DNA of 64,000 nt from Fibrobacterales bacterium (GTDB taxonomy: Bacteria > Fibrobacterota > Fibrobacteria > Fibrobacterales > JAOPTW01), in the NCBI GenBank assembly GCA_051532055.1, contig JAOPTX010000003.1:153064-217063 (forward strand), written 5' to 3'. Numbering within the stretch: the first letter of the stretch is position 1; every line of letters begins with the position of its first letter. This document shows positions 729 through 33,083 of this stretch, one piece after another. The translations under genes were made by a program, and so were the position numbers. The notes under the pieces were generated by a model. It saw only the letters and a program-made list of their open reading frames with translations, did no database searches and was not told the DNA's origin.

Positions 729-3700
729 TTGTCTATGAATGTAAATGCTCTTTATACAATCTTAATTCTTTTCATTTTTTCTATCAATGCGTACTCGGCC
801 TCTACTATAGGCAATTATGCGGAAATAGGTGATTATATAACTGTTTCGGAGTGGGGTGAGGTGTCTGCTTTGAATGCAGCAAAAACTAAACACTCTAATT
901 CATTTAACTACACCTGTTCTTTAGATGATAGTGAACGTGTAATATCACAGCCATACTTTTTTATTGAGGGAGGCTTTAAATATCTGTTTTTTTTCACTTA
1001 TGATGGGTCCAATAAATATGTGAGACTATATAATGCCACAACTCCAGGGAGTCTATTACCTGTTTTATCAAAAGAGGCTTTAGGCAATGGCCCTCATATT
1101 GTTATTGATACACACCTGTATATCTTTGATACTGATCATATTTCAGCATATACCTTAGCAGACCTTGCGAGTGGGGCTTTGAATGCTACTACAGTTACGG
1201 GGTATACATATTTAAGTCAAGCTCCAAATTTCTTTAAATATTATGAAAATGGCCAATTGGCTGATAAGTTTCAAATGAGTTATCCCAATGGTAAAATTGA
1301 AATATTCACCTTTTCAGATGCATTTACACTAGATGGAAAAAAGACCTATGGGGTAGATCTTGGAGTACGTTCTATTAAAAGTCGCCCAGAATATATTGTC
1401 GAAAAATCATCAAGTAATTCATACTTTGTGTCCATAGATAATTTAGGCGATATCATTACCACAAGTGCAGATGTTCAAGATGAAATTTGGCTTACAGAGC
1501 CATATAATAGTACATCTTTTGATGCAATTGATGTATACCCAGTTGGCGTTGATAACGAAGTTATTCAAATATTATCAAAGGATAATAAACTCTATAACTA
1601 TAACATTTCTTCCAATAAAATAATTGGACAAGAGCATACGTTTCTAATTGCTCCACAAGTAGTTAAAAACATAACAGGGAATACTATCAATTCTAGCACA
1701 ATCGAGTACTCTTCACCAAGCACTGCTTTTGCTTCATACACGTTTGGTGGGTTTAATAGACTTTGGGGGTATTTCCATCATGATGGCTCCTTTAGTTTAT
1801 CTCAATTTAAGGTGACTCCAGAAAAATATTCCCCCACTCTAAATGGACCTCTAATTACAAGTTTCCCCGCATCAGGAAATATAAATGTTACCTATGATCT
1901 TCTAATAAAAGATGCTGTTGGAACTATAGTTAAAACCTGGCCGAAGGCGCCCTTAGCATATGGACAGAATACAATAGATTGGGATGGAATTGACGATAAT
2001 GGAGTTGCAGCAGTCAGTAATAATTATATAATGTCTGCCTTATTTACTATTCCTGGTGGAACAACAGAGCAAGTGGATAAAAATTTCATTCTTGATAGAG
2101 ACCCTGTAACAGATGTTTCCTTAGATTTAATGAAAGGTATTCCAGATATTGAGGTAACAAGTCCTCAATTAGGATTAACAATTAATAATAACCGAGTATT
2201 TGTCTCTTCTATACATAAAATTAATCTTGATTTTTCAAATGTTATTGATGTTGCACCATTTACACAATCTGATCTCTCAGTTGAGCTAACATTACAAGAT
2301 ATAAATCAACCCGTTAAATCATATACCTATAGGTGGGATAAAACAACATTAAATCCTGTAACCCATAGTTTGACTTTAAATGGTAAAACACAAGGTGGCG
2401 TGAATATTCCTGATGGAATATATGATTTGAGTTATAAAGTCATTGATCAAGCAGGAAATGAGTCAACTCTACATTCAGGTTTTAAACTTGAAAATGATCC
2501 AAATCTATATGAAGGTATATATATACTACAAAATGATGTTTCAATTAGTGCAAGAGTTAATCCATTTTTTATTACCGCAAGCGATGCCTATACTGCTAAA
2601 GTTGATATAACGTTGACAGCCCCTCAAGATAAAGTGTATACATTAAATATGTATCTTATTGACGCCCAAGGCAACCAGCAAAGCCTTCCTGGTTTTGTTG
2701 CACAGCAAATCACGTTGTCTTCTGGTTCTGCTACCTATGCACAGACATTCGATTTCTCATCTATTACTCAAACGGGGATGAATCAAATAGTAATAGAGGT
2801 ACTTAATGAAACGTTTAATAAACAGGCAAAAAGTATTCCATTAATTCGTGACCGAATTGAGGCCACCATTATAAGCCCAGAGAATAATGAAACCATATCT
2901 CATAGGTTAGTTGAGATATCTGGTGTTGCAACGGCACCAACATTTGGAACAAAAAATTCAAATAGTATTACTTTTTATAAAGCATATTATTCAGAAGGTG
3001 CCCATACATTAAGTAGTTCGATTACGGAGAAATATAAATTATTCGAGAACATAGCTTGGAAGGCGTTGCCAGTACCATTAAGCCAACAGATTCGAAGTAC
3101 TGATCCTGTTTATAAGCAAATTAAACGGGAAATAGATGCAGAATTTCCAAATTCTAATATATCGGCAGTTGATGTTTCCACAAATGGTGTTTTAGCACTT
3201 TTTGAAAAAAACGAAATATTGAATCAGGAACAATTTACTGTCTTAATAATTTCATCTGAGTTGTTTTCTAATAAGTTGGATTCAGATGGTGATAATATTC
3301 CAGATGCAGTGGACAATTGTCCTTATTTAATTAATAGTGAGCAATTTGATTTGACTAATGATGGGATAGGTGATAAATGCCAGAGCCCTGTGAATAACCT
3401 TCTTGATTCTGATGGTGATGGAAAACTTGATATAGAAGATCTCTGTGTGTATCTAAGTACTGATGTAAAAAAAGATGATGATAATTCAGGACGGGGTGAT
3501 CAATGTGAGTTTATGAATTTACCTGATGATGATGGCGATGGGGTAGAAAATAGTATAGACAATTGTGTTTATCTACCAAATGAACCTCAAATGGATAATA
3601 ATAAAGATGGGATAGGTGATTTATGCCAAACAAATAGCGAAATATTTTCTTATGATTCTAAAGTTTTTAATTATGGCCCTTTTGAAAAAATAAATGCTGA

Positions 3701-6700
3701 ACTCATATTGATGGCAACTCAAGTTTCAAAAAATGTTGATCAGATGAGCCCAATAATCGTAAATCTTGACCCTAGTCATATTGATGCAGAACCAGAGTTC
3801 ACTCAATTGTCACTCACAGCTGATATTATTGGATTTACCACAGATATAGATATGACTGTAGTAAAAGGCCATGTTTCTGATGATAAAAATGGAGGTGAAA
3901 GCCATGAAGTTGTATTTGTACATCCTAAAGTTACGAACAGTACAGGCCCTGCTTCGCTTCTATTTTTGGGCAAAGACTATACTGATAGAACTGTTGATGA
4001 AGGAAACTACACTGCAATTATTGAAGCAAAAAGTAGTGAAATTGGTTTAATGAGACATTATTATCACTTTAGTGTGAGTATCCCTGAGCCTCCGACTAAT
4101 GATGATACACAACTACTTGTTGAACCAGGTCGTATACCTCTTGATTATACTGAAGGCTCCAAACCAAGAATTGATATTGAATTTGATATAAACAAAAAAT
4201 CAGATGTTAAAATTAAAATATTTCACAGTGCTGATTTAGTCAACCCAATCAGAAAATATTCTTTTACCAATAGCAGAACTGAACAATTATCATGGGATTT
4301 TTTAACTGAGCAAGGAGTATATATTGTTGATCAGTTAAATACTGATTCGCCTTTAGTTAATGAAAAAACTTTTGTAGTACAGCTCGTTAAAGGAACAGAT
4401 GTATTAGCAACCCAAAATGTAGTTATAGAAGAAGCAATACCTGAGATTACTTATGCACCAAGTATTTTGGAATACACTCCTAATGCTGCAGGAGTTTGGG
4501 AGGCGGGTATCCATTCAGGTTACAAATTTAAGGCACTCGCAAAAGGTGATCTTCAATTTATACCTAATAAAAATCTTAAACCGGGCATGGAGGTGAGTGC
4601 TAACCAAAAAGTAAGAGTATTTCCAGAAGTTCCTTATCGGATGACTTATTCAAAATACTATAATACTGCATCAATTTTTGCAAATTATGAAATAACTGCA
4701 GAGGGTAGACATGCTGGATATGGTGTATGTTGTTCGGGATCATGGACGTCGGAATTGGCAAAGGATAGTGAAAAAAATCTAATTAAAACTATCGATGGTA
4801 GTGGGCGCTTTGCTTCGACTAATGATGTGACTCCCCAATTTTCTAAAGACCCCAGTTATGTAGCAGGGGAATCAAGCCCTATCTGGTATGGTGATATTGA
4901 ACCATGGTTTGATCAAAGTCAACTGAGTTCTTATGATAAATGGTCTGAGTGCTTAGAGTTTCACCAAGAAGCGTTTGTTATGAACAAAAATAGTTTATCA
5001 ATTAATGAATTGTTATTCCAAGCACGTGTAATGGGGCAAGATGGAGAAGGTGATGATGCTTTTAAAGAAAGAAAAGGGTCGTTACAGCTAGGGGTTAATT
5101 TTGGAAAACTTAACGCTGGTTGTGGTCTAGATTTGGCGCAAGGATATCCAATACCACGATTAGAAAATGAAATGAAGACATGGGGAGCAGTAGGCTACGG
5201 TCCATTTTGGATGGTAAGATCAAATAATTGGAGTACCGACACGTATCATTCTCATAAATTTAATTATAGTAATTGGGATAGAGACGCTGGAGACCCACCA
5301 AGAAATCACGCGTTTTATCCCATGAAATATGTAAATGATTCAATTGACTTTACTCATCCTACCTTATATAAAAGAGATCTTATCATTGATGAACCAATAA
5401 GTTATCAAAATTATTTGAATTATTTGGATGGTGTTGCTGGGAATGATGAAACACTTTTACCTACAATCCCTGATGATTATCCTTGGGACGATGGTATATC
5501 ATTGGGTATGAGATTTGGAATGCGTGGATTTGCTTATACGCACAAAGATGATACTTATTTAAATGGTGGGTCGGGTAATGATGGCTTTACACATTTATTG
5601 CCTGTTATATACCCAAAGGATTTCATAGAAAACTACTATGTAATAGATCGACCTGATAAAGGAGAAACTTTAATTAATAAAATAGGCCATATGTATTGGT
5701 CCAATGAGCAGTTTAGTACCAATAACAGAGATAATATTGGAATATTCCCCATATTGAAAATTGACCTCTCAACTAAAGGGTATACGTGGGATGATATTGA
5801 AGTAGGTTATCCAATTGGTGATGGTACGGGTTTAAATATAGAAAGAAGAAATAATGAACCTGTTGTTGTTACCTATCGTAATGTCTACGAAGAGAGTGAA
5901 ATTGTCGGCAACGATATTGTTATGAGTGTACCTACAAATTTTCAATCAACAGGAGATGCTGCTGACGATGAAATACTCTGTTTTCCTATAAACCAGTGGA
6001 TTAGTGGGACAGAAGGTCTTTTTGAAGAGTTATTACGTAATGTGAAATCAAGAAGTGATGTCGTTCCACCCGATGAATACCCATATGTATTAAAAGAAAC
6101 GTTGCAATTTTCTGCAATTCGACCCTTATCAACCTATATCAATTATGATCAAACTATTGAAACATTGGACCCGAATGATTTTGCGCTCCATTTTAATGAA
6201 GATATTTTTTATAACTTCACCCAATCAGAGATTAATAATTCTGGGTGTCCCAATCCATCCCAATACTCATTAGATGATGTGGTTTATAAACTTACTAATA
6301 GAAATGCACCTATGACCGCTAATTATTGGAGTTCTAAAGATGATCCAGCTTTTGCTGTATATGATGGGTATCTCTATGGTTCAGGTAAATTTAACGAGCA
6401 TGGCTTCAAAACTCAACAAAATGCAATGTCAGAAAATGGTAATGGCTACCGAGGCCTTGTACAAGAGCTCATAAGTAATGTTAATGTAAACTTGGCAATC
6501 CCAACAGAGCAAGGGCCTCAAATTGTATCACCTTTTGTGAATAATAATGGAGCTGTAGAATTTAACTCAAATATTTTACCCTCAAGTCTTGAATGGGTTA
6601 TTGATGTATATCATCATGATGGGGAACAACTTAATGACGCTCTTGAAGTTAAGAATCAAAATGAGGAGGAAATGTTCAATCTAGGATTGGCACTTGATAT

Positions 6701-9700
6701 TACACCCAAGAATTTTGTTGAAATTAGAGGTGCTATACCTAATGCTATTCCTGTGGCTGAATCTGGTTTAAGTAATGATATACACTTTAAGTCTTATCAA
6801 CTTTTTGCTTATGTACCTGTAAAAGAAAAAAATGAAGCGGAAGAAAATTATTCAGAGGCTGAGTATCGATATGAACAAATCTCAGTAAATAAATACTTTC
6901 GGTCTGACCTAGCACTGGATAAATTTGAAGGTGATATCCTCCCACAACGAACGTTAGACTTATGGGACAACAGTGAAACTGGTTCAGTGAATCCCGTATT
7001 AGGATATTGGGATGTGACTCATTTAAATGGTCTTTATGATATTGTATTAAGGATTACGTATGTTGACAATAATAGTGGTAGTACCTATCTCGTAAAAAAA
7101 CCAATTAAAATACAAGTAGGAACAGAATTAGTTGCTGGACTAGAACCAGTAGTTCAGTCTACTTATAAACGTGCTGAATTAAATATGCCAGATGGCTCAT
7201 TTACTTCAGGAGATGTACTTTCAATGTATCCTGTTTCGTATAAGGATTTGTCATTGGGTGATGATTTACCTGATGTTAAACCAATTGGTCCAGTAATAGA
7301 AATTAAAACCACTGGTAGTACTAAAAAGTTCGAAGGTACATCGAAGCCGGTAATAACCTATCAATATAGTGCTCGTGAAATTTTTCAAATGAATGGTCGA
7401 TTGGCGGACTTTGAATTGTACAAAAGTACTAGCGACATCTCTGCATTACGAACTGAATTGCTCACATTTATTAGTACCTATAATGTCTATATGTTGAATG
7501 AAGAGGGGCAATTGGATGAAATGCCAACAATTGGAACACTATCTTCTCATGATTTACCTTCAGAGATTGAAGAACTATCAGTACTACTCACTGCGCCAGT
7601 TTCACACTTTTCTTGGGCTGTTGTGCTTGAAAGTTCAACTCTACCAACATTAACTCATGCCATTATCGAAGGTACGGATGTAATTGTAAAAGGTACGTAT
7701 GGGACACCTATAGTAGGTACCATTCCAACGGATTTGGAACTATATATTCATAAGTTCAATTCTCGTTCTGAGAGCCCAACATATATTAGAGGTATATGGA
7801 GTCCGGTGATCAACAAAACAGGTACTTTTGAATTAAGAATTCCTATTTCGGAATTCTATCCTGGTGATAATTATATATATGCGTCTTATGCAGTGCCAGC
7901 ACCTCAGGTAGCTCAAAATTCAGCTAAAATAAAAGTTGAGATCGAAACTGCACAATTACTAGTAGAAGATATTAAAGCGTACCCATCAGTTTTTGAACCC
8001 CATTGTGAAAAGAATAATTACTCGCTTTCATTTGCTGCGTCTAAATCAGGCATTGCAACACGGTATATACTTGATAACTTTGATAATGTAGTTTCTAAAG
8101 AAGTAGTTGCTATAGACTATGGTATTAATAGATTTAAATGGGATGGGTGTGTAGAGCAATCAACATTAAATTATGGTGAGTATTTAGTTAAATATATTTT
8201 TGAGGGTGCCGGCAGTCAAAACTTTGTCATGGGATTAAAGTTGACAGCATCTGATCAAATTAAATCCGTAAAGAGTATTAATGTAAAGTATTCGAGGTTT
8301 TTGCCTTCAGTCACAAATTCTCGACATTTACAGCACTTTAAAATTTATACACACGGTATTGATGCTGCTTCTGATTTAACCATTAATCTGAGTAGAGAAA
8401 GTGATGCCACTAGTTGGACGCTCACACCAGAATTATGGGAAACAAAAAACAATGAGTTTGTCTATCGTGCTACTTGGAACGGTCTCAATGGAAATACTAT
8501 TGAAGTAGATGATACCTACAAGGTAACTGTTAGCCATTCTACTCAAGGCGTGGTTACTCCATTAAAAAAGGAATTTGAATTATATAGCTCCATTCCCCCA
8601 AGTGTAGCTGTTACCCATAATTTTGGATCAGGTGATGTGCCAAGTACGGTACCAGCAATAGAAGTGCTCTTAACAAATAGTGTGAAAATGGGTGTTGTAC
8701 TTTGGTTAGAATACCTTAATGGTGATATTTTCTCAACTGAATTAGGCAAGAAAGGAACTGCAACAACAAGTGATCGCTATGACGTTGTAAATTCTGGTTC
8801 CAAAAGATATACTGTTAAAATGAAAAATAGCGAATTTCCAACAAGAATATTTGCACAATGGGAAACCGAAGAAGGAGAGTCTGGTTTAGTATCTTCTACA
8901 ATATCGGTAAATTATAATCCTGTTTTAACCGGGATCAATCATGGTAGCCTTGAGATTCAACCTCAAGTGTCTGATGTTTTTAGGTCACATTTTGAAAATA
9001 GAGGTCGGTTTACCGCATATAGCAGATCCACGTATGTTGAGTTTACGAGCTCTCGAGCTGGCGAGGTCCGGTATGTTGTAGAACGTAATGGACAAGTCTA
9101 TCGTAACGACAATTTAGCAATTAGAAGAGGACCGAATAAACTGTTTTGGGATGGAAAAGATGACCAAGGAAACTATGTACCTAAATCAGGGATATATACA
9201 ATTAAGGTCTTTACTCAACCAAGTGACCCAAGTGGTACTGAACAACTAGTTTCATCGTGTACTTATTCAGTTGATGTATATATTGTTCCAGATATAGCTA
9301 TATGCAAAAGTTCTGATCCGATATACACTCAAAATAAAATTACAGATCCCAATAGATTTGTAACTGGATTAATCACAAAATTATCTCAACCATTAGTTGG
9401 GATTACCAATGTTATGGAGTTATCACCCGAAGAAACAGTGGGGTATATGCAATATAATCCTAATGGAATGGTGGTGATTGTAAATGATATTACGCCAAAG
9501 GAGATATTTGATGGTACTCGAGATAATCCTCTATTTAGCTATATAAGGTCAGGCGGTAATGCAGTATTTATCAATTCTTTTCCATTTGCTCACTATGTAG
9601 ATCAATTCGGTAATATTCAAAGTAGCTTAGAACTTTCTCTACTCTTATTAGGTGAAAATGAACAGCAAGGACTTACAGCATTACAAGATAGAATGAATGC

Positions 9701-12700
9701 ATTGTATGCATTGTCTGAAGGTGTCACTCAGTTTGATGGGGCACAAGTTGATGACCTTTCTGCTGTGGTGACCAGCGGAATTTTGAATGCTGGGTTAATA
9801 GGTACAGGTGTACCTCAAAGCTACTTAGTTGAAAATGGTGGTTTGTTTAGTCCTCAATTATTTACTGATCAACAAACATTACCCAATGGTGCTCTCGAAA
9901 CATTTATTCATTCAGGTTACTTTAAGCCAAAGTTTAAAGCTACTGAATTACATAAATCTGGCGCATTTCTAATTATGCATCCATTTGGTTTTGTGATGGA
10001 TAATAGTACTGCAGGGATTCAAAAAGAACAAGAAGTTACTGAGGATGTAGCAAACTCAGTATACAGAAATTTCTTTGCAAATGATTTATATATCTTGTCT
10101 AGAGATGTGAAAATTACTCATAATGATGACAAAATTTTACATAGCGAATCTATTGATATATCAGTAACAATAAACTATAAGGGCAAACACACAATACCTT
10201 CAGTGGAGGTCGTGTTAACAGACCTCAATAACAGCAATTGGACTCAAACACTAAACTATTCTAATATATCTATGGGTAGCAGTGAATCTGAAAGAACACA
10301 AACTATCACCGTTCCAATAGATGCATTAGCAAGTTTTGATAGACATATAGTTACTGTAGATATTACACCGTTTTCTATTAATGTACCTCCTCTGGTGATT
10401 AATGAAGAAGTAGTGTATAATAATCAAACTCAGGCGGTGTATTATGTACAATCAAATATAGCGCCTACTCTTACTATTAATAATATTACTAGTGGATACT
10501 TTGATGGCTTAATCACAGGCCTCGCAACGGGGCTCCCATACGAAGTAAGTGGCTCAATTGTAAATAGTCACGGGCAAGGTGATATTAAGCTAACTACAAT
10601 TCTCAAAGATAATGCCGATAATGGTATTAAATTTTATAGTAGTACTCTTGTAACTACACCTAATTTTACACAAGAAGTATCACCAACTGTAGATCTAGAC
10701 CCTACACATAATTACTCAGTATCTATATCAGCCAAGGATAAATATGATAATCAAACAGATGTTGAATATCTTATCAATATTGATGGTGAACTACCCGTAA
10801 TTACCCAATTGACGTGTGACAATTCACATGTTACCAAAATATTTGGCACTGAAGCGGTACATTATGTCATTGATGATATTGCACGATTTACCTTTGAAGT
10901 ATCTGATAATTTAGGGTTAAAATCTTACACACTAAAACGAGGGCCTGCAGTATTAGTTGATGAGGTATTAAGTGGTGTAACTTCTGGCATTCAGACTTTT
11001 ACATTTCCTACAACTGAAGGAGACTTTACATTTATTACCACTGATAATGCTGGTAATGAAATGAAACGAAACTTCACTATAGTCAATGATGTGGAGAAAT
11101 CTGTGGTTCGTATTTTAAATGTTGGAAATACCTTAATGCATCAAGTCGTTGATGGTACCATAACAATTTCTGAGGATGCATTTATGTATGATGAACCTCT
11201 ATTTGAACATTTCCCATTAGTTGTGAGAGGAACAGATGAAGAAAATGAGTTTATTGAAACAGCACGAAATGATTTCGCTACTATTGGTGTAAATGTCGAT
11301 GAACTTCCAGGATTCAAAATTGGTGACTATAGTACTCATTTTATGCATACTACGACAAAGGCAATGTTCCTAATAGATATTTTTGAAGAACATTTAAATT
11401 CTGTAAAAGTGAAAATTAATGATGATCCAGCTGTTGATGCGAGTACTTTAGATCCATTTCAATCATTATTACCAGCCTCGATGCTCCCAATGTATACTAA
11501 TCATAAATATCATAGATATATTGAATTCGATGGGCTTATTGTAGGGGAAGAATATAACATTAAAGTCATGGTTGAGGATGAATCGGGTAATGTCACTACA
11601 ATAGATTTAAAGTTGGGTAATGCAATAAATAAATCTTATGTTGAAGACCCTCAAGGAGATAGAAGCTCTGCTATAGGTCCCGATTTTGGTGAAGTGTACG
11701 TTTCAACCGCTGAGCATACAGGATTTGGCTCACAAGAAGGTGGAGCATGGGTGTACTTTATGATTTATAGTTACAACAGTGACTTTGCTAACCAAATAAC
11801 TGACAACTATCTGTACATTGATGCTGATAAACTTGAAGTAACTGGCGCACAAGATGTAGGGAGAAACAGTCAAAACTTTGATGGGTTTGAATATCGAGTT
11901 ACATTTGGTTCTGTCGATGTACTTGATAGTGGAAAAGCTACAAATGTTACCCTTGAAGAATGGAATGGAACTGCTTGGGCTGCTTTAAGAGCTACAACAG
12001 AATGGAATGTAAATGCCTCTATACAAATAGATGCTAATCAAATTAATGATGTATGGACTCCACCACGTGGGGAGGGGCATCAGGTGACTCCATCAGATAA
12101 AATAGCGAAAGCACCAGGATCTGTTATAGAAATTGGGGTAAGATTAAATAACATGTATGCAAAAAATGACATCCGTTGGTTTTTAGATGGTGAGTATGAT
12201 GATGTATATAATACAAATACAACCCAGCCTTTCTTGTTTAAGTATATAACAGACGGGTCAAAATATATTGATGGTATCACTAAAGATTGGTATACCGATA
12301 CTCCATTTAATGCATTGAGATCAGATATACTTGTGAGTGCTAAACCTTCAGAAAAAGATATACCAATTCAAAACACATGGGAAGAACAGAAAATATCATT
12401 CTCTATTCTGAATAATGGTTTTACAGATGTTGGTAATGTTTCCTTACGCTATTTTATAAACCTTGGTGGTTGTACAGATGTACGAACATATTTAGATAAT
12501 GTTAATGAAACATTTTGGAAGATAACAACTGATGCCCCAATTCAGGCTAATACACTGGGTAGATATAAAGGATTAGATGATGATATCTATTTTGTTGAAT
12601 TGGAATTTATTACCCGTGTATTAACACCAGGTGCTGAGTTGAAAGGGATCCCTTACTTTACTCTTAAAGGGAATGGTTGTACGACTAGATTCGAAGATAA

Positions 12701-12782
12701 TTTTAACAATCAACTTCCAAACAATGTTGAACTCGTTAATGAGCATAACCGTTCATTATTAAATTCTCAAATTACAGAATAA
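729..12782 (+). CDS. giant secreted multidomain protein (about 4015 aa) with FlgD-Ig-like modules, thrombospondin type-3 Ca-binding repeats and Ig/CARDB-like modules
   Basis: Uninterrupted 12-kb ORF. The likely real start is ATG 735 ([23 protein letters not shown] signal peptide). At least four 'x-W-D-G-x-D-x-x-G-x-x-v-x-x-G-x-Y' FlgD-Ig-type signatures are present ([50 protein letters not shown]). TSP3 repeats [15 protein letters not shown] / [14 protein letters not shown] / [14 protein letters not shown] lie at nt 3279-3629. 'D-x-AGN' Ig-like modules also occur. Confidence 0.9.
   Translation: [4017 protein letters not shown]
3279..3629 (+). repeat. thrombospondin type-3-like calcium-binding repeats (coding, inside the giant protein)
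   Basis: DxDxDGxxDxxDNC(P/V)Y motifs with paired Cys recur over about 115 aa: [35 protein letters not shown] ... [35 protein letters not shown]. Confidence 0.75.
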
Positions 12783-12793
12783 GATATCATATT

Positions 12794-15700
12794 ATGAAAG
12801 ATTATAAAACTATGAAAAATGTAAATAATATCAGTGCTTCAATATTAACTGTTCTACTCGTTGTCATATTAGCAGTCCAACTTGGATTTTCAAGTATCAT
12901 ACGATCTAATGAGCAAGGTATAAACGGAAACCACAATTTTACTTCTGGTGGCCCTGGTGCCCAAATTAGCACTCTGAATGGAAATATGGTTATTACTTCA
13001 ACTGCTGCTGATATTTCTAGGGCTCCCTTAGGTATCCAAGTAAGTCGAAGTTATAATTCTGGGTGGAGAAATGCAACTCAGGCCCACCTAATGGATGTAC
13101 AAAAAGATGGAAAATTTAAAGATGTTGACCGTACTCCTGATGCATTTGATTTTGCACCAAATTTTCTTCAGAGAACATTCTATTATAGACCTGACGTAAC
13201 AGAGAATCCATCAGGATACCAAACATCAGCTCTACTTGCAGGAGCATCAGCTACGTATGCAATAGGTGGTTCGATATTAAACTATACTATAGCACAGCAA
13301 AAAGAGGCCGCCGGTACAACACCGCAACCTAAAACTGGATTAGATCACGCAGCGACAGCAATGACAATTATTAATACTGCTTTTAGCTTAAAAACTCTTG
13401 CAGAAAGCAATGGTGATTTTAATAATGTTCAATCATTTCAAGCAATTAATAATTTATCATCATTTGTTTTAAAGTCAGTGACCGAAAAAGCTACTAAAGA
13501 GACAATTGGTCAAATATCAGGTACTATCGGTGCTGCTCTTACCATGTATTCTGCAGCCAAAACTCTATCAAATGTAGAAGATGGCTCACCAGGAGATGAA
13601 GCTCAAAAGATAGCGGCTGTTACTCAAATTGTTGGTGCCATGGGTAGTATGATGGCAGCAGCGAGCGCGGCTTCTGCAGCTACAGGAGTGGGAATCGCCA
13701 TAACAGCGGCAGTTATAGTTGTTCAGATAACTGCTATGTTAGTAACAATTCAAGAAGTACTTGACGCAAATTTAGATATTGCAGAGTATCGACCTCACCC
13801 ATGGCTTTTTGGGGTTAATGGTTATGTGATGCTCGTGGGGACAAAGTATGAGGATGAAGAGGCTCAATATTCAAATATGTTCGGCGGATATTCGAGTAGA
13901 GAAACCTACCAACACTGTACAGCAAGAAATAAAAATGGTTGTTCTAACTACGAAACTCGTTGGAGAGGTGTTGGCGACCGTTCATCAGGTCATCCTATGA
14001 CTGATATGCAGCTGGTTAAGTCTGACGGTGGATCAACGCGGTTTGTTATGGAAAACCATCATTATCAAATACATAATGATGGCATGCAAGATATTAGATA
14101 TTATAATTATAAATCTTTATCAAATGCAAATTTTAAAGAAATATACTATGTGGATTACCCCCCGTATCAGACAAATGATTGGACTAATGGTATACCGGTT
14201 CATACATCAGATTTATTAGGTGTTGGTGACTATTATATGATAAAAGAACCTAATGGTACTGTAGCGAAATTTGGTGTCTCCAGTGATAAAGGAATATACA
14301 GGCATACTGCACGTAATTATCCAAGAGAAATGTATTGGTCTTTTATAGATGAAATTTCTCATACTATATCAGGACAAGTTATAACGGTTAACCGTGATGC
14401 AACGAGTAAACAAATTACGGAGGTCACACATAGTGCAGATACACGAAGGGTAACTATTGATAGGTCTCCAACTCAAGAAGTTGTTAAAGTAGTAGATGGC
14501 ACAACAGAGTTATCAAAAATTACCTATGATTTCGGCCTTATTGATTACACTTTTTTTAAAGAGACAAAGTATAGAAATGACCCTATCCTTGATGCTTCAG
14601 GAAATCCCGTAATAGATGATGAATCAGGAGAAACAGCAACGAAGACCGTTTCGTATGTATATGAACACAAAGCTCAAATGAAAATGATAACAAAAGAATC
14701 TCGCCAGGTTGATGCATCAAATAGTGCAAAAGATTTGATTAAAAATTATGTGTATGATGAATATGGTAATATGACACAGATAAGTACAACAAATGGTAAT
14801 ACTTACAATTATAGCTATTCCGAACTTGATACTCCTACTGAGGGATTTGTAATGAATGTACTCATGGAAAATGGCGCTAAAACAACATCGTTAAATAAAA
14901 AGTTTACGTATACTGGCTGGTCAATCGGATCAGCTGATGGTTATCAGGATGGTTTAAATGGAACTGTTATGACAACTGACATTGTGACAAGTCTCACACA
15001 CCCCGATCTACCAAATAGTGACTATCCAAATAAACATACTATCTTAGAAAAAACAACGTTTAGGGTATCGCAAGATACTTCAACAATTAGACAAATTAAA
15101 AATGCAACTGAATTTTTAGCAACGGGTACGTCGTCAGAAGAGGTAACGAAATATGGTACTGTGGGAATGCAATTATTGTCTCATCAACTTGGATCTTTTG
15201 GCATTGGTCCAATGATAAGTTACCGATATAATGGTGATTTGTTGACAACGACTATTAAGAGAGAACAATCAAACCTTAATATAGATCCAATAATAACCTC
15301 TTATCACTATGATCACTATGGTAATCAAATAGCAGTATTAAATTCTTCTAAAATAGATATGGATAACTACGATGCTGCCTTTTTTGCTATGCATGCAAAC
15401 CTAAAACCCTATGATTGTATAAACGAAATAGAAGTGTGCGAATGTGATAATCCAAATTATGACCCTGATATTCATCCAGTTTCAGAAAGATTTATGGAGT
15501 GCAAAAATCCTGATGTTCTCAATTGTTATAGTAATTTTCCTACTCTGGTCGACTGTAGATCGAGAGATGTAAACTTTTGTACCGATGTTAATTCAAACCC
15601 AGTAGCCTGTTTGGTTGTTGATCCTCTGTTAAGAAAATGTGAAGTTGTAGAAGAGCCTATTGTAGGGTGCACTGAAGATATATTCGAGCAGAATGTTGAG

Positions 15701-18700
15701 GCTAACAAACAAGCCATTTATACACAAATTAATACACAATTTGGAATCGATTATAACTTACTAACATTTGAAGTAGTAGATATTAACACCTACAGTTTTT
15801 ATGATAGTAAACAAATAGCGGGTAATTTTTATAGCAAACGGTCACTAACAACAACTGAAAGAACAGATCAACGTACAAAGTTTGAATCTAAGTATCCTGG
15901 TGAAATATTGACGGATGCAGATCTTGACATGAGTAACAAAGAGATCTTAAATCCATTGTTTGATCCTAATGCTCTTTATTTACCAGGGATTTTAAACGAG
16001 CAACATACCAGTAGACTTCATCCAGATGAAAATGAACTTCTGAGCTATTCTTTTGGTACTAAATATTCATTGAATACTGATTATCTTCCCATTTCTGAGC
16101 ATAGAATAATAAATGGAAATAGCGCTGATACTGCTCTTATTCTGGTAAAAGAAACAGCATATAATGATCCGGCTAATAGATTTGCTCCAACAGGGAAAAA
16201 AACGTATATAGATGATGGCATGTATGCATATGACTCAACAAAATACGACGCTAAGTATCATCAATACCCTGTAGAAAATCATGTTTATAAAGGTGTTTTT
16301 GATATAAATACAACACCAGCTGCGGTGGGTGATTTTGTTACTACCTTGGTATATAACCCAAAAAACTTTCTTGAGACACAAACTAATCCCAATTTGCAAA
16401 CCACTTCTTTTACTTATGATGATGTAGGGAGGGTTGTCAGCACCTTAAACCCAAATGGTACTACTATTATTACAGAACATAACGATGCTCAAAATTATGT
16501 TATGCAGATCAATTCAACAGGTCAAAAATCAAAAATTGTACAGGATGGGCTCGGTGTTGATAGTACTTTTATTACATACGATAATACTGGTACTCTCACA
16601 CAAACATCAAAAAAAGTCTATAATCAATCAGGTCTTATTTATCAACAAGACAATGATGGACGTGAACTTTTTAATTATTATAGTGACGCTGGCAGATTAT
16701 ACATATCTCAGGTACCAGAAGTAAAGGGAGAGTATACCCGATATATTCAAACAAACTTTGAGTATGATTTTTTAAATAGAACAAAAACTACTATTGATCC
16801 TTTACTTAGAAGAACAATAGAGCACTCTAATAAAAACGGCCAGGCAATTAAAATAGAGTCTGAAAAAACGGGTGGAGGCTTTATTACAACCCAATATATC
16901 TATGATAATTTTGGAAATTTAGTCGAGACAATTGATCCTAATGGCAATAGTGAAACTATGGTATATAATCACATGCAACAACCGACTACGGTGGAGTATG
17001 CTGATCAATATAAAATCGAGTATTTTTACACAAATCAAGGGCGTCTAAAGCGTTTTGATAAAACAGACCTTTCACAAACACCTACAGTCACTACATCTAT
17101 CAAGTACGGTAGGGACGGACTTGATAGAGTTATTGCCGATACCGTTGTGTCAGGGTTAGAGCAGTTGGAAACTTATTACACCTATGATAATGCAACGTTT
17201 AATACTACTACTTATGCATACCCACAAAAACTAGTAGATATCACACGTGATAGTTTAAAGGTTAATTTTAGTTATGATAATTTTGGGAATTTGACTGAAA
17301 AGGTAACCCGTATTTACCCAGGGGCAATTTTTACTTCAGGCCCAACCTATTATGGGTCAATTGGTTATGGTTATAGAGATGATTTTAGTGTTGAAACAAT
17401 GACTATAAATGGTGACCTCGCACTAACATATGGTCGCGACCCCTATTTTAGAAATAATACTATTTCTGGTTCATACAAAAGTGGGGCACTGTTTGATATT
17501 ATTAAATCGGTGACTTTTACGCCTAATAACATGGTGGACCAAGTCGTGTATGGGAATAATATTACCACTACCTATGGGTATGATTCCAATAGGCCTATTT
17601 TAAAAAGTATTGAAGCGACAATGGATAATGCCCATGAGCCATTTTATAAACATATAATTACTAATTTAGGAAAGACAGGAAACATAGAGAGAATACAACG
17701 CCACAATGGGACTGAGGCGGCTTATGAGTATGATAAGTTAGATCGCCTTATATCAGTTGGCTATCCTGATGGTGGTGTTGGGGGGAATAATCTTGTAATG
17801 GCCTATGATAATAATGGTAATATTGAGAGTTTTACCCATGATTTTGGTCAGATAGATTACTTTTATAATACTACAGGAAGTGGCGCTACTATTAAACAAC
17901 AAAATACTCTTATCAAATCACATTCGGCACTAAATGGTTGGGCAGTATATGATTATGATAAAAATAAAAATCGAACGTCAACAAGTTATTACAATAAATC
18001 GAGTGACTTAATAGCCGGCAACACTAATTGGCATGTACGACATGAATATGGATTTGACCTACTGAATAGAATGAAAACCTATGTTAAAAAAACTAAGTCA
18101 GGGCAAAGTGGCATTGAGGCTGTAAGTGAGTATCTCTATGATTATGATATTGATGGAGCTAAATTGGTAACCCATAGAAAAAATGGTGCAGGTTTATACG
18201 AAAAACAAAAAGAGTTTGTCTATGAATGGCCTAATGTAGTGTACGAAGCAGATACAGTTTCTGGCGATAGTTCTTATTTTGTATTCTGGGGTAACGAGCG
18301 TATTGCTGAAGTTAAGATAGAGAGTGAAATGCCGGAAATCTATTTTTACCATAATGATCACCTTGGTACTGTTAACCAGATAACTACAAATGAAGCAATA
18401 CCTTCAGTTGTTGCACGATATACTTTTGATCCTTATGGAAATTTAGAGTCATATCAGGGAAGTTATCACACAAATTATTTTTATACCACCAAAGAATGGG
18501 TTCCTGAAATGGGTATGTACTATTTTGGCGCTCGGTATTATGATCCGCATACATTGCAGTGGATGAGTACAGACCCTCTATTTGAATTTAATTCTCCTTA
18601 TAGTTATGTTGGTGGTAATCCACTTAGATTAATTGATCCTGATGGTAAAGACGCCATATTAACGAAAAATGATGTTGATAATACAATTACTATTGAGTCT

Positions 18701-19222
18701 ACAATTTTTATATATGGGGATGAGGCTTCCGCTGATGTTGCAGAACAGATACAGGGTAATATTATGGACGCTTGGGACAATAAAGAATACATGGATGAAG
18801 AAACAAAGGTAAAATATAAGGTAGTATTAAAATTAAAAGTTGTATCTATGGGGAAAGATAAAGATCCTCTAGCTGCTCATGTTGCAAAGAGAGATGGTAT
18901 TAATTTCATTAAGATAGCTGACCCCAATACTTCTTATGTGAATGCAGCGAATGGTAGAACTGGTGAATGGCGAGGCCCTTCTTCATGGGAAGACTATGAT
19001 AATCCTGCTGCACATGAATTTGGGCATTTGATAAGACTAGATGATAAATACTTTTCTAATAAAGCAGGGTATCCTGCTCATCCAGGGTGGAAAGGGACGA
19101 TTATGGGGGAATCACCAGGTGAAGGTGTTGTAACAGGAAAAGTAATGTGGAATTTACTTAATAAAAGAAAATATGATGTAAATAATCAATTTTTTATCAA
19201 TTCTACAACAACTTATAGGTAA
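12794..19222 (+). CDS. RHS/YD-repeat polymorphic toxin with N-terminal membrane anchor and C-terminal zinc-metallopeptidase-like toxin domain
   Basis: Many YD repeats are present (YDEYGNMTQIS, YHYDHYGNQIAV, FTYDDVGRVVST, YIYDNFGNLVETIDPNGN, YEYDKLDRLISV). The RHS-associated core reads YFYHNDHLGTVNQIT...YTFDPYGN...MGMYYFGARYYDPHTLQWMSTDP...NPLRLIDPDGKD. The N-terminal hydrophobic helix is ISASILTVLLVVILAVQLGF. The gene starts 11 nt after the giant gene. Confidence 0.95.
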   Translation: MKDYKTMKNVNNISASILTVLLVVILAVQLGFSSIIRSNEQGINGNHNFTSGGPGAQISTLNGNMVITSTAADISRAPLGIQVSRSYNSGWRNATQAHLMDVQKDGKFKDVDRTPDAFDFAPNFLQRTFYYRPDVTENPSGYQTSALLAGASATYAIGGSILNYTIAQQKEAAGTTPQPKTGLDHAATAMTIINTAFSLKTLAESNGDFNNVQSFQAINNLSSFVLKSVTEKATKETIGQISGTIGAALTMYSAAKTLSNVEDGSPGDEAQKIAAVTQIVGAMGSMMAAASAASAATGVGIAITAAVIVVQITAMLVTIQEVLDANLDIAEYRPHPWLFGVNGYVMLVGTKYEDEEAQYSNMFGGYSSRETYQHCTARNKNGCSNYETRWRGVGDRSSGHPMTDMQLVKSDGGSTRFVMENHHYQIHNDGMQDIRYYNYKSLSNANFKEIYYVDYPPYQTNDWTNGIPVHTSDLLGVGDYYMIKEPNGTVAKFGVSSDKGIYRHTARNYPREMYWSFIDEISHTISGQVITVNRDATSKQITEVTHSADTRRVTIDRSPTQEVVKVVDGTTELSKITYDFGLIDYTFFKETKYRNDPILDASGNPVIDDESGETATKTVSYVYEHKAQMKMITKESRQVDASNSAKDLIKNYVYDEYGNMTQISTTNGNTYNYSYSELDTPTEGFVMNVLMENGAKTTSLNKKFTYTGWSIGSADGYQDGLNGTVMTTDIVTSLTHPDLPNSDYPNKHTILEKTTFRVSQDTSTIRQIKNATEFLATGTSSEEVTKYGTVGMQLLSHQLGSFGIGPMISYRYNGDLLTTTIKREQSNLNIDPIITSYHYDHYGNQIAVLNSSKIDMDNYDAAFFAMHANLKPYDCINEIEVCECDNPNYDPDIHPVSERFMECKNPDVLNCYSNFPTLVDCRSRDVNFCTDVNSNPVACLVVDPLLRKCEVVEEPIVGCTEDIFEQNVEANKQAIYTQINTQFGIDYNLLTFEVVDINTYSFYDSKQIAGNFYSKRSLTTTERTDQRTKFESKYPGEILTDADLDMSNKEILNPLFDPNALYLPGILNEQHTSRLHPDENELLSYSFGTKYSLNTDYLPISEHRIINGNSADTALILVKETAYNDPANRFAPTGKKTYIDDGMYAYDSTKYDAKYHQYPVENHVYKGVFDINTTPAAVGDFVTTLVYNPKNFLETQTNPNLQTTSFTYDDVGRVVSTLNPNGTTIITEHNDAQNYVMQINSTGQKSKIVQDGLGVDSTFITYDNTGTLTQTSKKVYNQSGLIYQQDNDGRELFNYYSDAGRLYISQVPEVKGEYTRYIQTNFEYDFLNRTKTTIDPLLRRTIEHSNKNGQAIKIESEKTGGGFITTQYIYDNFGNLVETIDPNGNSETMVYNHMQQPTTVEYADQYKIEYFYTNQGRLKRFDKTDLSQTPTVTTSIKYGRDGLDRVIADTVVSGLEQLETYYTYDNATFNTTTYAYPQKLVDITRDSLKVNFSYDNFGNLTEKVTRIYPGAIFTSGPTYYGSIGYGYRDDFSVETMTINGDLALTYGRDPYFRNNTISGSYKSGALFDIIKSVTFTPNNMVDQVVYGNNITTTYGYDSNRPILKSIEATMDNAHEPFYKHIITNLGKTGNIERIQRHNGTEAAYEYDKLDRLISVGYPDGGVGGNNLVMAYDNNGNIESFTHDFGQIDYFYNTTGSGATIKQQNTLIKSHSALNGWAVYDYDKNKNRTSTSYYNKSSDLIAGNTNWHVRHEYGFDLLNRMKTYVKKTKSGQSGIEAVSEYLYDYDIDGAKLVTHRKNGAGLYEKQKEFVYEWPNVVYEADTVSGDSSYFVFWGNERIAEVKIESEMPEIYFYHNDHLGTVNQITTNEAIPSVVARYTFDPYGNLESYQGSYHTNYFYTTKEWVPEMGMYYFGARYYDPHTLQWMSTDPLFEFNSPYSYVGGNPLRLIDPDGKDAILTKNDVDNTITIESTIFIYGDEASADVAEQIQGNIMDAWDNKEYMDEETKVKYKVVLKLKVVSMGKDKDPLAAHVAKRDGINFIKIADPNTSYVNAANGRTGEWRGPSSWEDYDNPAAHEFGHLIRLDDKYFSNKAGYPAHPGWKGTIMGESPGEGVVTGKVMWNLLNKRKYDVNNQFFINSTTTYR
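18647..19219 (+). other. C-terminal toxin tip of the RHS protein (about 190 aa, metzincin/snapalysin-like HExxHxxxxxD)
   Basis: It begins right after the core-terminating DPDG motif (nt 18635-18646). HEFGHLIRLDDKY lies at nt 19013-19051. A candidate Met-turn (GTIMGE) follows downstream. Confidence 0.7.
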
Positions 19223-19705
19223 TTGGTGGCCTCTAGTTTACATTTCCTAGTAGTGATAGCTTTTCTATTTATTATTGGGTGTAATCATAAATCCAATGTT
19301 TGTGAAAGTGATGTTAATAAAAAAAACATTGACCACGAATATTTAGGTGGTGGCTTTATAAAGTGCTCTTATCAGGTAATAAATGATAGTAGTCATTTTG
19401 AAAAGTATTACCTTTCTTCCGAAACTTTTTACCACAGTAAAAATCTGGGTGGTCTTTCGGCATTTTATAAATCTCCTCGACGTGACTATGCTATATTTGT
19501 TAAAAATGAGGATGCTCAGCTATATGTATTTGATTTGGAAAGTGGTGAGGAAAAAATTGTAGATTTTGATGTAGCTATTTTCCCTGTTGAAGTGAAGTGG
19601 TCACAAAATAGCAAGCATGTAGTTGTTCATTATCGAAATGATGATAAATTTTTGGTAACGAAAACAGTTAGAATTGATTTATCAACAGGGGATGCAGAAA
19701 AGTAG
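19223..19705 (+). CDS. putative cognate immunity lipoprotein of the RHS toxin
   Basis: It sits immediately after the RHS stop (TAA 19220-19222). The frame contains no ATG at all, so the start must be TTG 19223 or GTG 19226, with an AGGT Shine-Dalgarno-like element at 19217-19220. A lipobox is present (LFIIGC, Cys20). Size (160 aa) and position are typical of toxin-immunity pairs. Confidence 0.7.
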   Translation: MVASSLHFLVVIAFLFIIGCNHKSNVCESDVNKKNIDHEYLGGGFIKCSYQVINDSSHFEKYYLSSETFYHSKNLGGLSAFYKSPRRDYAIFVKNEDAQLYVFDLESGEEKIVDFDVAIFPVEVKWSQNSKHVVVHYRNDDKFLVTKTVRIDLSTGDAEK

Positions 19706-32672: not shown

Positions 32673-33083
32673 GTAGCCTTTCGGCAGTATAGCCTTTTCA
32701 ATGTTCATTCAATAGTTTAAGACTGTTACCCCTTATTTTCAATGGCGTAGCTGTCTTAAGCTTTCCTTTACACAATTGCATATTAAGCAACCTCTATCAT
32801 CATATTCCGTTGGATTGTATCCACCGGTATCGGTATCGTGCGTATATAGATGAGAATTAAGTCTTCTACTCATGCTTACTTAAAGTAAATAAATATAAGA
32901 TTGTCGTCCAGGGTGTGTTCTAGGTGGCTTTATCCTCGTTATTCACTTATATTGCCCAAATTGGATGATAATAATGTAGGTGAAAATAGCTATAGCTTAC
33001 TAATAGTAATGATAAAAATACCTAACTTTAGTTTTTTATGTCGTATATTTAAACATGAACTATTTGGATTGGGAAATCTAGTT

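What the first reader, a model, noticed from the sequence alone, without database searches (positions are those of the whole stretch)
13076..14008. About 310-aa helical insertion with an Ala/Gly-rich hydrophobic hairpin inside the first RHS repeats
The RHS protein begins conventionally (LNGNMVITSTAADISRAPLGIQVSRSYNSGW) and resumes conventionally (MQLVKSDGGSTRFV). In between sits a segment with helix-like amphipathic stretches. It also contains a roughly 48-residue uncharged Ala/Gly/Ile/Val run at nt 13610-13753 (IAAVTQIVGAMGSMMAAASAASAATGVGIAITAAVIVVQITAMLVTI). A buried hydrophobic helical hairpin inside a helical bundle is the design of colicin pore-forming domains and diphtheria-toxin T domains. 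This could therefore be a built-in membrane-insertion or translocation module. It differs from prePAAR/Eag-dependent TMDs because no AARxxDxxxH-type motif is seen.
Basis: inference. Interest (0 to 1): 0.62.

Follow-up and report, generated by a model that had tools for sequence, protein, structure and literature searches.

The report
Helical hydrophobic cap in Fibrobacterota RHS toxin
A secreted RHS toxin from an uncultured Fibrobacterales bacterium carries a previously undescribed six-helix, alanine-rich module with a greasy hairpin, spliced into the plug that closes the toxin capsule; the module is real and conserved in a small family, but whether it enters membranes is unproven.

Summary
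ORF 12794-19222 (2142 aa) is an RHS toxin with a signal peptide. After the first half of its N-terminal plug (DUF6531-like, aa 51-103) comes about 300 aa of foreign sequence. This includes six predicted helices (aa 140-325) and a 48-residue uncharged run (aa 273-320). Only about 190 aa are helical; aa 330-405 are strands and a Cys loop.

The module is not a one-off. An exhaustive search of 1.84 billion proteins found 16 relatives, and genome and metagenome scans added more. All genome-derived relatives are from Fibrobacterota, all are about 2000-aa RHS proteins with the module at the same position, and a giant (>3300 aa) secreted protein gene always lies directly upstream where flank is available.

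Conserved features are a Gly/Pro hairpin tip without Lys/Arg, an always-polar residue in mid helix 6, acidic flanks and low charge.

No sequence or fold link to colicin, diphtheria T or Bcl-2 domains was found, and the models are low-confidence. In 22 of 24 members the hairpin is too polar for a Sec-inserted anchor. Candidate immunity proteins are lipoproteins or membrane proteins, so the toxins probably act in the cell envelope.

Best reading (about 0.4): a conditionally membrane-active cap at the cocoon's exit. Main rival: a docking or gating adaptor for the giant partner.

The parts
729..12782 (+). Giant secreted partner gene (4017 aa), ending 11 nt before the RHS start
   Evidence: It has a signal peptide and FlgD_ig and TSP_3 domains. 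A >3300-aa ORF directly precedes the RHS gene in L003-L007. These giants are distantly homologous (E 3e-43 to 9e-21). The C-terminal 500 aa is conserved next to the RHS gene in L002, L003, L009 and L013. No TM-like segment exists apart from the signal peptide.
12794..19222 (+). RHS polymorphic toxin ORF (2142 aa)
   Evidence: Pfam RHS_repeat E 7e-11. TIGR03696 Rhs_assc_core at aa 1878-1951, E 1e-15. The sequence is identical to NCBI 'hypothetical protein OCC49_01125 [Fibrobacterales bacterium]'.
12794..12895 (+). Sec signal peptide (aa 1-34)
   Evidence: Kyte-Doolittle peak of 2.51 at aa 17-35. Homologues have small-x-small cleavage sites just before the conserved RHNEQG motif. Cleavage itself is inferred.
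12944..13102 (+). First half of the N-terminal plug (DUF6531-like, aa 51-103)
   Evidence: DUF6531 positions 2-37 match aa 56-92. hhalign against canonical DUF6531 gives probability 82.5%, E 9.8e-6. DUF6531 is the plug that caps the barrel aperture in Tse5 (PMC10684867).
13103..13204 (+). Variable linker (aa 104-137)
   Evidence: Poorly aligned and variable in length across the family. pLDDT is below 50.
13205..13768 (+). Six-helix, Ala-rich, charge-poor module (aa 138-325)
   Evidence: Six helices appear in both AlphaFold2 models. In aa 136-330, Ala is 18.5% against 4.0% in the RHS body and Arg is 0%. About 12% of residues are charged. The module is acidic in all 24 members. No Pfam, NCBIfam or PDB match was found.
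13595..13768 (+). Hydrophobic helical hairpin (helices 5-6, aa 268-325), including the 48-aa uncharged run at nt 13610-13753
   Evidence: The Gly/Pro turn has no Lys or Arg in any member. Both flanks are net acidic in nearly all members. pLDDT is about 70-75 for helices 4-6.
13724..13726 (+). Codon of Q311, an always-polar position in mid helix 6
   Evidence: This alignment column holds Q in 16, D in 4, N in 2 and E in 2 of 24 sequences.
13769..13840 (+). Conserved post-module strand motif (aa 326-349: D328, P336, W337, G343, Y344, G349)
   Evidence: It contains the only invariant columns of the family alignment, P336 and W337. Strands are predicted at 330-350.
13841..13987 (+). Second variable loop with a Cys pair (aa 350-398; C375, C383)
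   Evidence: Length varies widely, with about 140 extra aa in P0006. Cys pairs also occur in homologues. The hairpin at aa 366-396 has pLDDT around 85.
13988..14053 (+). Conserved re-entry into beta structure (aa 399-420: HPM..L.LV..DGG..RF)
   Evidence: Nearly invariant P401, M402, L407, G412 and G413. Strands are predicted. Equivalence to the second half of the plug was not demonstrable.
18425..18646 (+). RHS-associated core ending in ...LIDPDG
   Evidence: TIGR03696 and motif positions.
18647..19222 (+). C-terminal toxin tip with HEFGH (aa 2074-2078)
   Evidence: An HExxH motif is present but there is no Pfam match. C-termini differ among homologues.
19223..19705 (+). Putative immunity lipoprotein (160 aa)
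   Evidence: It begins directly after the RHS stop codon. A lipobox-like ...FLFIIGC is present. There is no Pfam match.

Best explanation
The segment is a family-specific helical cap domain spliced into the N-terminal plug of a Sec-exported RHS toxin cocoon. The plug closes the aperture through which RHS toxins are thought to leave.

The module has six helices of 19-34 residues joined by short loops. It is Ala/Gly-rich and poor in charge. It ends in a marginally hydrophobic hairpin with an uncharged Gly/Pro tip, acidic flanks and an obligatory polar residue in mid helix 6.

Proposed mechanism (inferred):
1. The module crosses SecYEG without being trapped, because it is too polar for stop-transfer in most members.
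2. It folds in the periplasm or outside the cell as a compact bundle on the plug.
3. On contact with a membrane, the hairpin and possibly further helices partition into the bilayer tip-first.
4. This tethers the exit end of the cocoon to the membrane and loosens the plug, so the cleaved C-terminal toxin is released into the envelope of the target cell.

Shown here: the anatomy, the conservation, the position in the plug, the export signals and the pairing with a giant gene. Inferred: bundle packing, membrane insertion, gating and which membrane is targeted.
For: - Helical content comes from two independent AlphaFold2 runs.
- The 48-aa uncharged run has a chance expectation of about 0.002.
- The module is present at the same site in all 24 non-redundant family members. 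Sequence identity to the window is low (9-21%), yet composition, the Gly/Pro tip and the polar mid-helix column (24 of 24) are conserved.
- The best 19-mer Hessa energy is below 0 only in the window protein (-0.53) and P0002 (-0.60). It is +1.9 to +4.4 kcal/mol in the rest. This is the pattern of post-translationally inserting hairpins, not of Sec-integrated anchors.
- The tip lacks Lys/Arg and both flanks are acidic. A tip-first insertion would therefore carry no charge across the bilayer.
- The module is the only hydrophobic helical element in the two-gene unit.
- It sits in the DUF6531 plug, which caps the barrel aperture (PMC10684867).
- In T6SS Rhs effectors, membrane helices next to the plug are proposed to assist toxin translocation (PMC8765631; PMC7773334).
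- The best Foldseek neighbours, although not significant, are polytopic helical membrane proteins.
Against: - No homology or significant fold match to any known membrane-insertion domain was found.
- The models are low-confidence: pLDDT 52 and 60, pTM 0.32 and 0.48.
- Helices 1-4 are neither clearly amphipathic nor hydrophobic.
- The module is acidic in all members, which disfavours binding to anionic bacterial membranes at neutral pH.
- In the subclade P0007/8/10/12/13, L005-7 and L010-11 the hairpin arms are short, Gly-rich and followed by an Arg.
- Putative immunity proteins are lipoproteins or membrane proteins. The toxins therefore need not cross an inner membrane, and a helical hairpin is not an obvious device for crossing an outer membrane.
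- The strict pairing with a giant secreted protein suggests the cap may instead be a protein-protein interface.
Confidence: 0.38

Rival explanations
1. The helical module is a docking and gating adaptor. It plays the role of the TcB beta-propeller in Tc toxins. It caps the N-terminal aperture of the cocoon and binds the giant upstream protein, which acts as the delivery scaffold. The hydrophobic hairpin is buried in that interface or in the plug, never in a lipid bilayer.
For: - The giant gene is always directly upstream, overlapping or within 11 nt, and its C-terminal domain is conserved next to the RHS gene.
- The RHS protein is about the size of a TcB-TcC fusion (size comparison from general knowledge, not tested here).
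- The module lies in the plug.
- N-terminal caps differ by Rhs class and are held by hydrophobic contacts (PMC8765631).
- The hairpin is only marginally hydrophobic in most members.
- A Cys pair between helices 2 and 3 in one subclade suggests a soluble folded domain.
Against: - The giant protein has no detectable TcA-type domains and no hydrophobic partner segment.
- Sequence conservation inside the helices is very low for a specific interface.
- No interaction could be tested.
Confidence: 0.3
2. The hairpin is an ordinary two-span anchor. During Sec export, helices 5-6 stop transfer and fix the RHS protein in the producer's inner membrane, with the cocoon in the periplasm.
For: - In the window protein, helix 6 reaches Kyte-Doolittle 2.45 and Hessa -0.53 kcal/mol, and the run is 48 uncharged residues.
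- Arm lengths of 20-24 residues would span a bilayer.
Against: - 22 of 24 members score +1.9 to +4.4 kcal/mol.
- Arm 1 is rich in Ala, Ser and Gly.
- The would-be cytoplasmic tip has no Lys or Arg in any member, against the positive-inside rule, and the flanks are acidic.
- Four further helices always accompany the hairpin.
- One subclade has short arms with an Arg.
Confidence: 0.1
3. The module faces the lumen. It folds back into the cocoon as a low-charge, greasy lining or holder for the unfolded toxin, like the anchor helix of RhsA.
For: - An N-terminal anchor helix binds the hydrophobic inner wall in RhsA (PMC8765631).
- The module has low charge and an Ala/Gly-rich composition.
- It emerges from the plug.
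Against: - About 190 aa of helices plus a toxin of about 190 aa would have to share the lumen.
- The location cannot be assessed, because no coordinates or confident full-length model are available.
- The strictly polar mid-helix residue and the Gly/Pro tip have no obvious role in this picture.
Confidence: 0.1
4. The segment is a low-complexity, functionless or disordered expansion in a loop.
For: Low AlphaFold2 confidence, very low sequence identity and biased composition.
Against: - It is retained at one site in all 24 members across deep divergence.
- The same six-helix pattern is predicted in two runs.
- The polar column, the Gly/Pro tip and the adjacent D328/P336/W337 motif are conserved.
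Confidence: 0.04

Closest known systems
T6SS prePAAR/TMD Rhs effectors (for example P. protegens RhsA; PMC7773334, PMC8765631)
   Same: Both are RHS cocoons with a cleavable C-terminal toxin and hydrophobic helices placed next to the N-terminal plug. Those helices are thought to engage the target membrane during toxin release.
   Different: This protein has no prePAAR motif, no PAAR domain and no Eag or T6SS context. It has a Sec signal peptide. Its helices are inserted inside the plug rather than lying N-terminal to PAAR. It has six helices, most too polar to be TM segments. Its immunity proteins are exported.
Tc (ABC) toxin BC cocoon with beta-propeller gate plus TcA (as described in PMC8765631)
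   Same: A large RHS cocoon of about 2000 aa follows a very large upstream gene. A non-RHS domain inserted near the N-terminal end caps the exit.
   Different: The cap is helical, not a beta-propeller. No SpvB, TcB-mid or TcA-type Pfam domains are found in either protein. The organism is from Fibrobacterota.
Colicin pore-forming domain and diphtheria toxin T domain
   Same: An uncharged Ala/Gly-rich helical hairpin of about 40-48 residues lies at the C-terminal end of a helical domain of about 190 aa. Acidic flanks are reminiscent of the diphtheria T domain.
   Different: No sequence match and no fold match in the top 50. The outer helices are charge-poor rather than amphipathic. The domain is acidic, unlike basic colicin domains. 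It is not a toxin in its own right but an insert in an RHS plug.
Tse5 (P. aeruginosa Rhs; PMC10684867)
   Same: [quoted passage not shown]
   Different: The Tse5 plug is contiguous (aa 48-124). [quoted passage not shown] In the protein studied here, about 300 aa are inserted after the first half of the plug.
Sec-dependent RHS/WapA toxins of Gram-positive bacteria (general knowledge; cf. PMC12704120)
   Same: An N-terminal signal peptide, an RHS body, a polymorphic C-terminus and a downstream immunity gene.
   Different: WapA-type proteins have a contiguous DUF6531 and wall-binding repeats. They have no helical hydrophobic module and no giant partner gene.

Membership tests
RHS/YD-repeat polymorphic toxin | RHS/YD repeats | tested here: met
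   Pfam PF05593 E 7.2e-11. TIGR01643 and NF041261 also hit.
RHS/YD-repeat polymorphic toxin | RHS-associated core with terminal DPxG motif before a variable toxin | tested here: met
   TIGR03696 at aa 1878-1951, E 1.1e-15, above its cut-off. The core ends in ...LIDPDG at aa 1948. C-termini differ among homologues.
RHS/YD-repeat polymorphic toxin | Contiguous N-terminal plug (DUF6531, 74 positions) | tested here: inconclusive
   Only positions 2-40 match, below threshold (16-23 bits against a cut-off of 24.1). hhalign probability 82.5% for the first half. The second half was not detectable.
RHS/YD-repeat polymorphic toxin | Adjacent immunity gene | tested here: inconclusive
   A 160-aa lipoprotein-like ORF starts at the RHS stop codon. 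Protection was not tested and no family match was found.
prePAAR/Eag-dependent TMD effectors (T6SS) | prePAAR motif AARxxDxxxH | tested here: not met
   A regex search of the whole protein found none.
prePAAR/Eag-dependent TMD effectors (T6SS) | PAAR domain | tested here: not met
   No PAAR family appears in the Pfam or NCBIfam scans.
prePAAR/Eag-dependent TMD effectors (T6SS) | Cytoplasmic effector without a signal peptide, with an adjacent Eag chaperone | tested here: not met
   An N-terminal signal peptide is present. The neighbouring ORFs show no DUF1795/Eag hit.
Colicin pore-forming domain / diphtheria toxin T domain / Bcl-2-like | Sequence membership in the Pfam families | tested here: not met
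   An hmmscan of the segment at E<=10 and of 17 members at E<=1 listed none of these families.
Colicin pore-forming domain / diphtheria toxin T domain / Bcl-2-like | Fold: hydrophobic hairpin buried in a bundle of amphipathic helices | tested here: inconclusive
Colicin pore-forming domain / diphtheria toxin T domain / Bcl-2-like | Membrane insertion or channel activity | not testable with these tools
   This needs liposome or planar-bilayer assays.
Tc toxin BC + A | TcB SpvB/mid domains and beta-propeller; TcA VRP1 and TcB-binding domains in the partner | tested here: not met
   No such Pfam families appear in the RHS protein or in the 4017-aa partner.
Ordinary Sec-integrated TM hairpin anchor | Both arms hydrophobic enough for translocon insertion, with a basic cytoplasmic loop | tested here: not met
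   Hessa 19-mer energy is above +1.9 kcal/mol in 22 of 24 members. The tip has no Lys or Arg in any member.

The most novel reading that the evidence does not exclude
These loci encode a new two-component, Tc-like toxin delivery system restricted to Fibrobacterota. A giant secreted scaffold is paired with a Sec-exported RHS cocoon of a fourth structural class. The N-terminal plug of this class is split by a six-helix, membrane-active gate, which forms the conduit through which envelope-acting toxins enter neighbouring cells.
Probability: 0.2. Interest if true: 0.8.

Novelty: new variant of a known kind. Interest (0 to 1): 0.52.

Why it matters
How RHS toxins that are not carried by T6SS, T7SS or Tc complexes leave the producer and enter a target cell is largely unknown. 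This is especially true in diderm phyla outside Proteobacteria.

Three cap types are known for the exit end of RHS cocoons: cork plug, beta-propeller and FN-plug. A helical, hydrophobic cap spliced into the plug, always paired with a giant secreted protein, would be a fourth solution. It would give a concrete handle on delivery in Fibrobacterota, an ecologically important group of fibre-degrading bacteria of guts and sediments. Candidate experiments are hairpin mutants, changes at the Q311 position, and pull-downs with the giant partner.

If the module is only a docking surface, the finding is still a new domain family but of narrower interest.

Tried and rejected
- **Word-index protein searches.** Searches with the N-terminus and with the family alignment returned nothing useful. 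The low-complexity words swamp the index.
- **First genome scan.** A scan with the window sequence found nothing. A five-sequence alignment then worked.
- **Pfam phi29_gp9_C hit.** E 0.052, 12.8 bits against a cut-off of 27, in one member only. Rejected as compositional.
- **Restoring DUF6531.** Deleting aa 93-398 or 93-328 did not restore a full DUF6531 match.
- **PDB sequence searches.** Two family profiles and a canonical DUF6531 region gave only chance hits.
- **Deeper alignment for AlphaFold2.** A 16-sequence domain-only run gave pLDDT 60.
- **Downstream genes.** They are not conserved between loci, as expected for polymorphic immunity cassettes.
- **RNA elements.** No Rfam family was found in the window.
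Full report
**1. What is at the coordinates**

ORF 12794-19222 (+) encodes a 2142-aa protein. The finding's range, nt 13076-14008, is aa 95-405. The quoted flanking peptides and the uncharged run (aa 273-320, nt 13610-13753) are present exactly as stated.

The protein is an RHS toxin. It matches Pfam RHS_repeat (E 7e-11) and TIGR03696 Rhs_assc_core at aa 1878-1951. It ends in a roughly 190-aa tip with an HEFGH motif. A 160-aa ORF starts at its stop codon.

It begins with a signal peptide (Kyte-Doolittle 2.51 at aa 17-35). It has no prePAAR or PAAR motif. The exact sequence is deposited as a hypothetical protein of a Fibrobacterales MAG. FISUMP-domain genes elsewhere in the window agree with that origin.

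**2. Is the feature more than chance?**

With 22.9% charged residues, a 48-residue charge-free run is expected about 0.002 times in this protein. aa 136-330 contain 18.5% Ala, against 4.0% in the RHS body, and no Arg, Trp or Cys.

Two AlphaFold2 runs gave the same six helices, at aa 140-173, 181-204, 212-230, 235-260, 268-290 and 296-323:
- aa 1-459 with 17 sequences: pLDDT 51.9.
- aa 136-335 with 16 sequences: pLDDT 60.0, pTM 0.48.

Helices 4-6 reach a pLDDT of about 70-75. Secondary structure is therefore reasonably secure, but the packing is not.

From aa 330 onward strands are predicted. A hairpin at aa 366-396 has pLDDT around 85. So only about 190 of the 311 residues are helical.

**3. 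It is a family feature, not a one-off insertion**

Word-indexed searches failed. An exhaustive phmmer search of 1.84 billion representative proteins with aa 60-440 found 17 proteins, including the query itself. Most are RHS proteins of about 2000 aa, and the match sits at the same N-terminal position.

Genome and metagenome scans added 13 loci. All seven genome loci come from Fibrobacterota MAGs. After removing duplicates there are 24 sequences.

The module is 9-21% identical to the window sequence, yet several features are kept:
- The flanks are conserved: RHNEQGLSPTHSY, NLNGNLV, NSHWRDPL, then D328, P336-W337, G343-Y344, G349 and HPM..L.LV..DGG..RF.
- The hairpin turn is Gly/Pro-rich and never carries Lys or Arg.
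- The column of Q311, in the middle of helix 6, is polar in 24 of 24 sequences (Q in 16, D in 4, N in 2, E in 2).
- Both hairpin flanks are net acidic in nearly all members.
- The module is acidic in every member.

The RHS body is itself very divergent. The next non-family RHS hits have E of about 1e-15.

**4. Where the module sits in the RHS architecture**

Pfam DUF6531 matches aa 56-92 through its positions 2-37 only (E 0.012), and 6 of 17 members hit the family at E<=1, all below threshold. A family profile aligned to four canonical DUF6531 regions gives hhalign probability 82.5% and E 9.8e-6. The alignment is confident only over aa 51-100.

[quoted passage not shown] The RhsA paper shows that this end carries class-specific caps: cork plug, beta-propeller, or FN-plug with NHL. 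It regards opening of this end as the likely route of toxin release (PMC8765631).

The helical module is therefore spliced into the plug. I could not demonstrate the second half of the plug after the insert. The C-terminal boundary rests on predicted strands and on resemblance by eye.

**5. Context**

In every locus with enough upstream flank (L003-L007) and in the window itself, the RHS gene is preceded by a giant ORF of more than 3300 aa. The giant ORF overlaps the RHS gene or ends within 11 nt of it.

- In the window the giant is 4017 aa, with a signal peptide and FlgD_ig and TSP_3 domains.
- The giants are distantly homologous (E 3e-43 to 9e-21).
- The C-terminal 500 aa of the window's giant is conserved next to the RHS gene in several loci.
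- None has a TM-like segment beyond the signal peptide.

The ORFs just downstream are lipoprotein-like in the window, L004 and L006, and polytopic in L005. If these are immunity proteins, the toxins act in the cell envelope. The window protein has 12 Cys in total, grouped as a pair (C375, C383) and a ten-Cys block. Homologues also carry Cys pairs in loops. These patterns fit folding outside the cytoplasm.

**6.

In favour:
- The segment is helical, not disordered.
- The hairpin has about 20-24-residue arms and a Gly/Pro tip, and is accompanied by four more helices.
- Across the family the hairpin is only marginally hydrophobic. The best 19-mer Hessa sum is below 0 only in the window protein (-0.53) and P0002 (-0.60), and is +1.9 to +4.4 kcal/mol in the other 22. 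Together with a tip that breaks the positive-inside rule, this argues against an ordinary Sec-integrated anchor. It fits a segment that passes the translocon and could insert later.

Against:
- No colicin, diphtheria T or Bcl-2 family appears in the Pfam scans.
- PDB profile searches gave only chance hits.
- Foldseek gave no significant match. The best hits were six-TM SatP channels (E 0.09, TM-score 0.40-0.43) and phage membrane proteins. The longer model gave only meaningless hits.
- Helices 1-4 are charge-poor rather than amphipathic. Moments are 0.07-0.32, and at family level only helix 1 beats shuffles.
- One subclade has a short Gly-rich hairpin followed by Arg.
- Envelope-acting toxins would not need a device for crossing the inner membrane.

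**7. Verdict on mechanism**

I favour, at about 0.38, a conditionally membrane-active cap on the cocoon's exit. In this reading it passes Sec, folds as a compact helical domain on the plug, and on membrane contact inserts its hairpin tip-first. That would tether and loosen the plug so that the cleaved toxin is released into a neighbour's envelope.

| Reading | Confidence | Main reason |
|---|---|---|
| Membrane-active cap | about 0.38 | Marginal hydrophobicity, uncharged tip, position in the plug |
| Docking or gating adaptor for the giant partner | about 0.30 | Strict gene pairing, analogy to the TcB propeller |
| Static inner-membrane anchor | about 0.10 | Fits only the window protein and P0002 |
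| Lumen lining | about 0.10 | Analogy to the RhsA anchor helix |
| Junk insertion | about 0.04 | Contradicted by the conserved features |

The anatomy, conservation, location in the plug and gene pairing are shown. Everything about membranes or docking is inferred.

**8. Novelty**

RHS toxins and hydrophobic helices near the Rhs plug are known. This module has no family assignment and splits the plug. It occurs with a Sec signal and a giant partner, and is confined to a small set of Fibrobacterota. I rate it a new variant of a known kind, of moderate interest.

Noticed in passing
window 729-12782 (+): A 4017-aa secreted protein (FlgD_ig, TSP_3) is tightly coupled to the RHS gene. Equivalent giants of more than 3300 aa precede the RHS gene in all related loci with upstream flank. 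They have no TM segments and no TcA-type domains. The function is unknown.
   Followed up: partly
window 19223-19705 (+); L004 16203-16781; L006 16135-16686; L005 16069-16725: The ORFs directly after the RHS genes are lipoprotein-like or, in L005, polytopic membrane proteins. They are unrelated to one another. This suggests exported immunity proteins and envelope-acting toxins.
   Followed up: partly
window 15404-15676 (+), aa 871-961 of the RHS protein: A 91-aa block within the RHS body contains 10 of the protein's 12 cysteines (KPYDCINEIEVCEC...IVGCTE). It looks like a second inserted, disulfide-rich element.
   Followed up: no
window 20076-20852 (+): A 258-aa protein with a signal peptide ends in ...LRVQF, an aromatic C-terminus typical of outer-membrane beta-barrels. 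It has no Pfam match and is not conserved in the related loci.
   Followed up: partly
window 1-24000 versus 24000-64000: The block holding the giant gene, RHS gene and neighbours has 34-38% GC. Most of the rest of the window has 38-45% GC. This may be an island or a compositional effect of the giant genes.
   Followed up: no
window 27159-29522 (+) and 32901-34757 (+): Two proteins carry the FISUMP domain (Fibrobacter succinogenes major paralogous domain). One also has ZirU-like repeats. They are useful as a taxonomic marker for the window.
   Followed up: partly
P0002 and P0015 C-termini (homologues, not in the window): Some family members end in strongly hydrophobic, Gly/Ala-rich tips rather than enzyme-like domains. 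These may be membrane-disrupting toxins.
   Followed up: no
window 12893-12943 (+), aa 34-50; homologues aa ~22-40: A motif directly after the predicted signal-peptide cleavage site is highly conserved in relatives (RHNEQGLSPTHSY; RSNEQGINGNHNF in the window). It could be a sorting signal, or a segment that threads into the cocoon.
   Followed up: no
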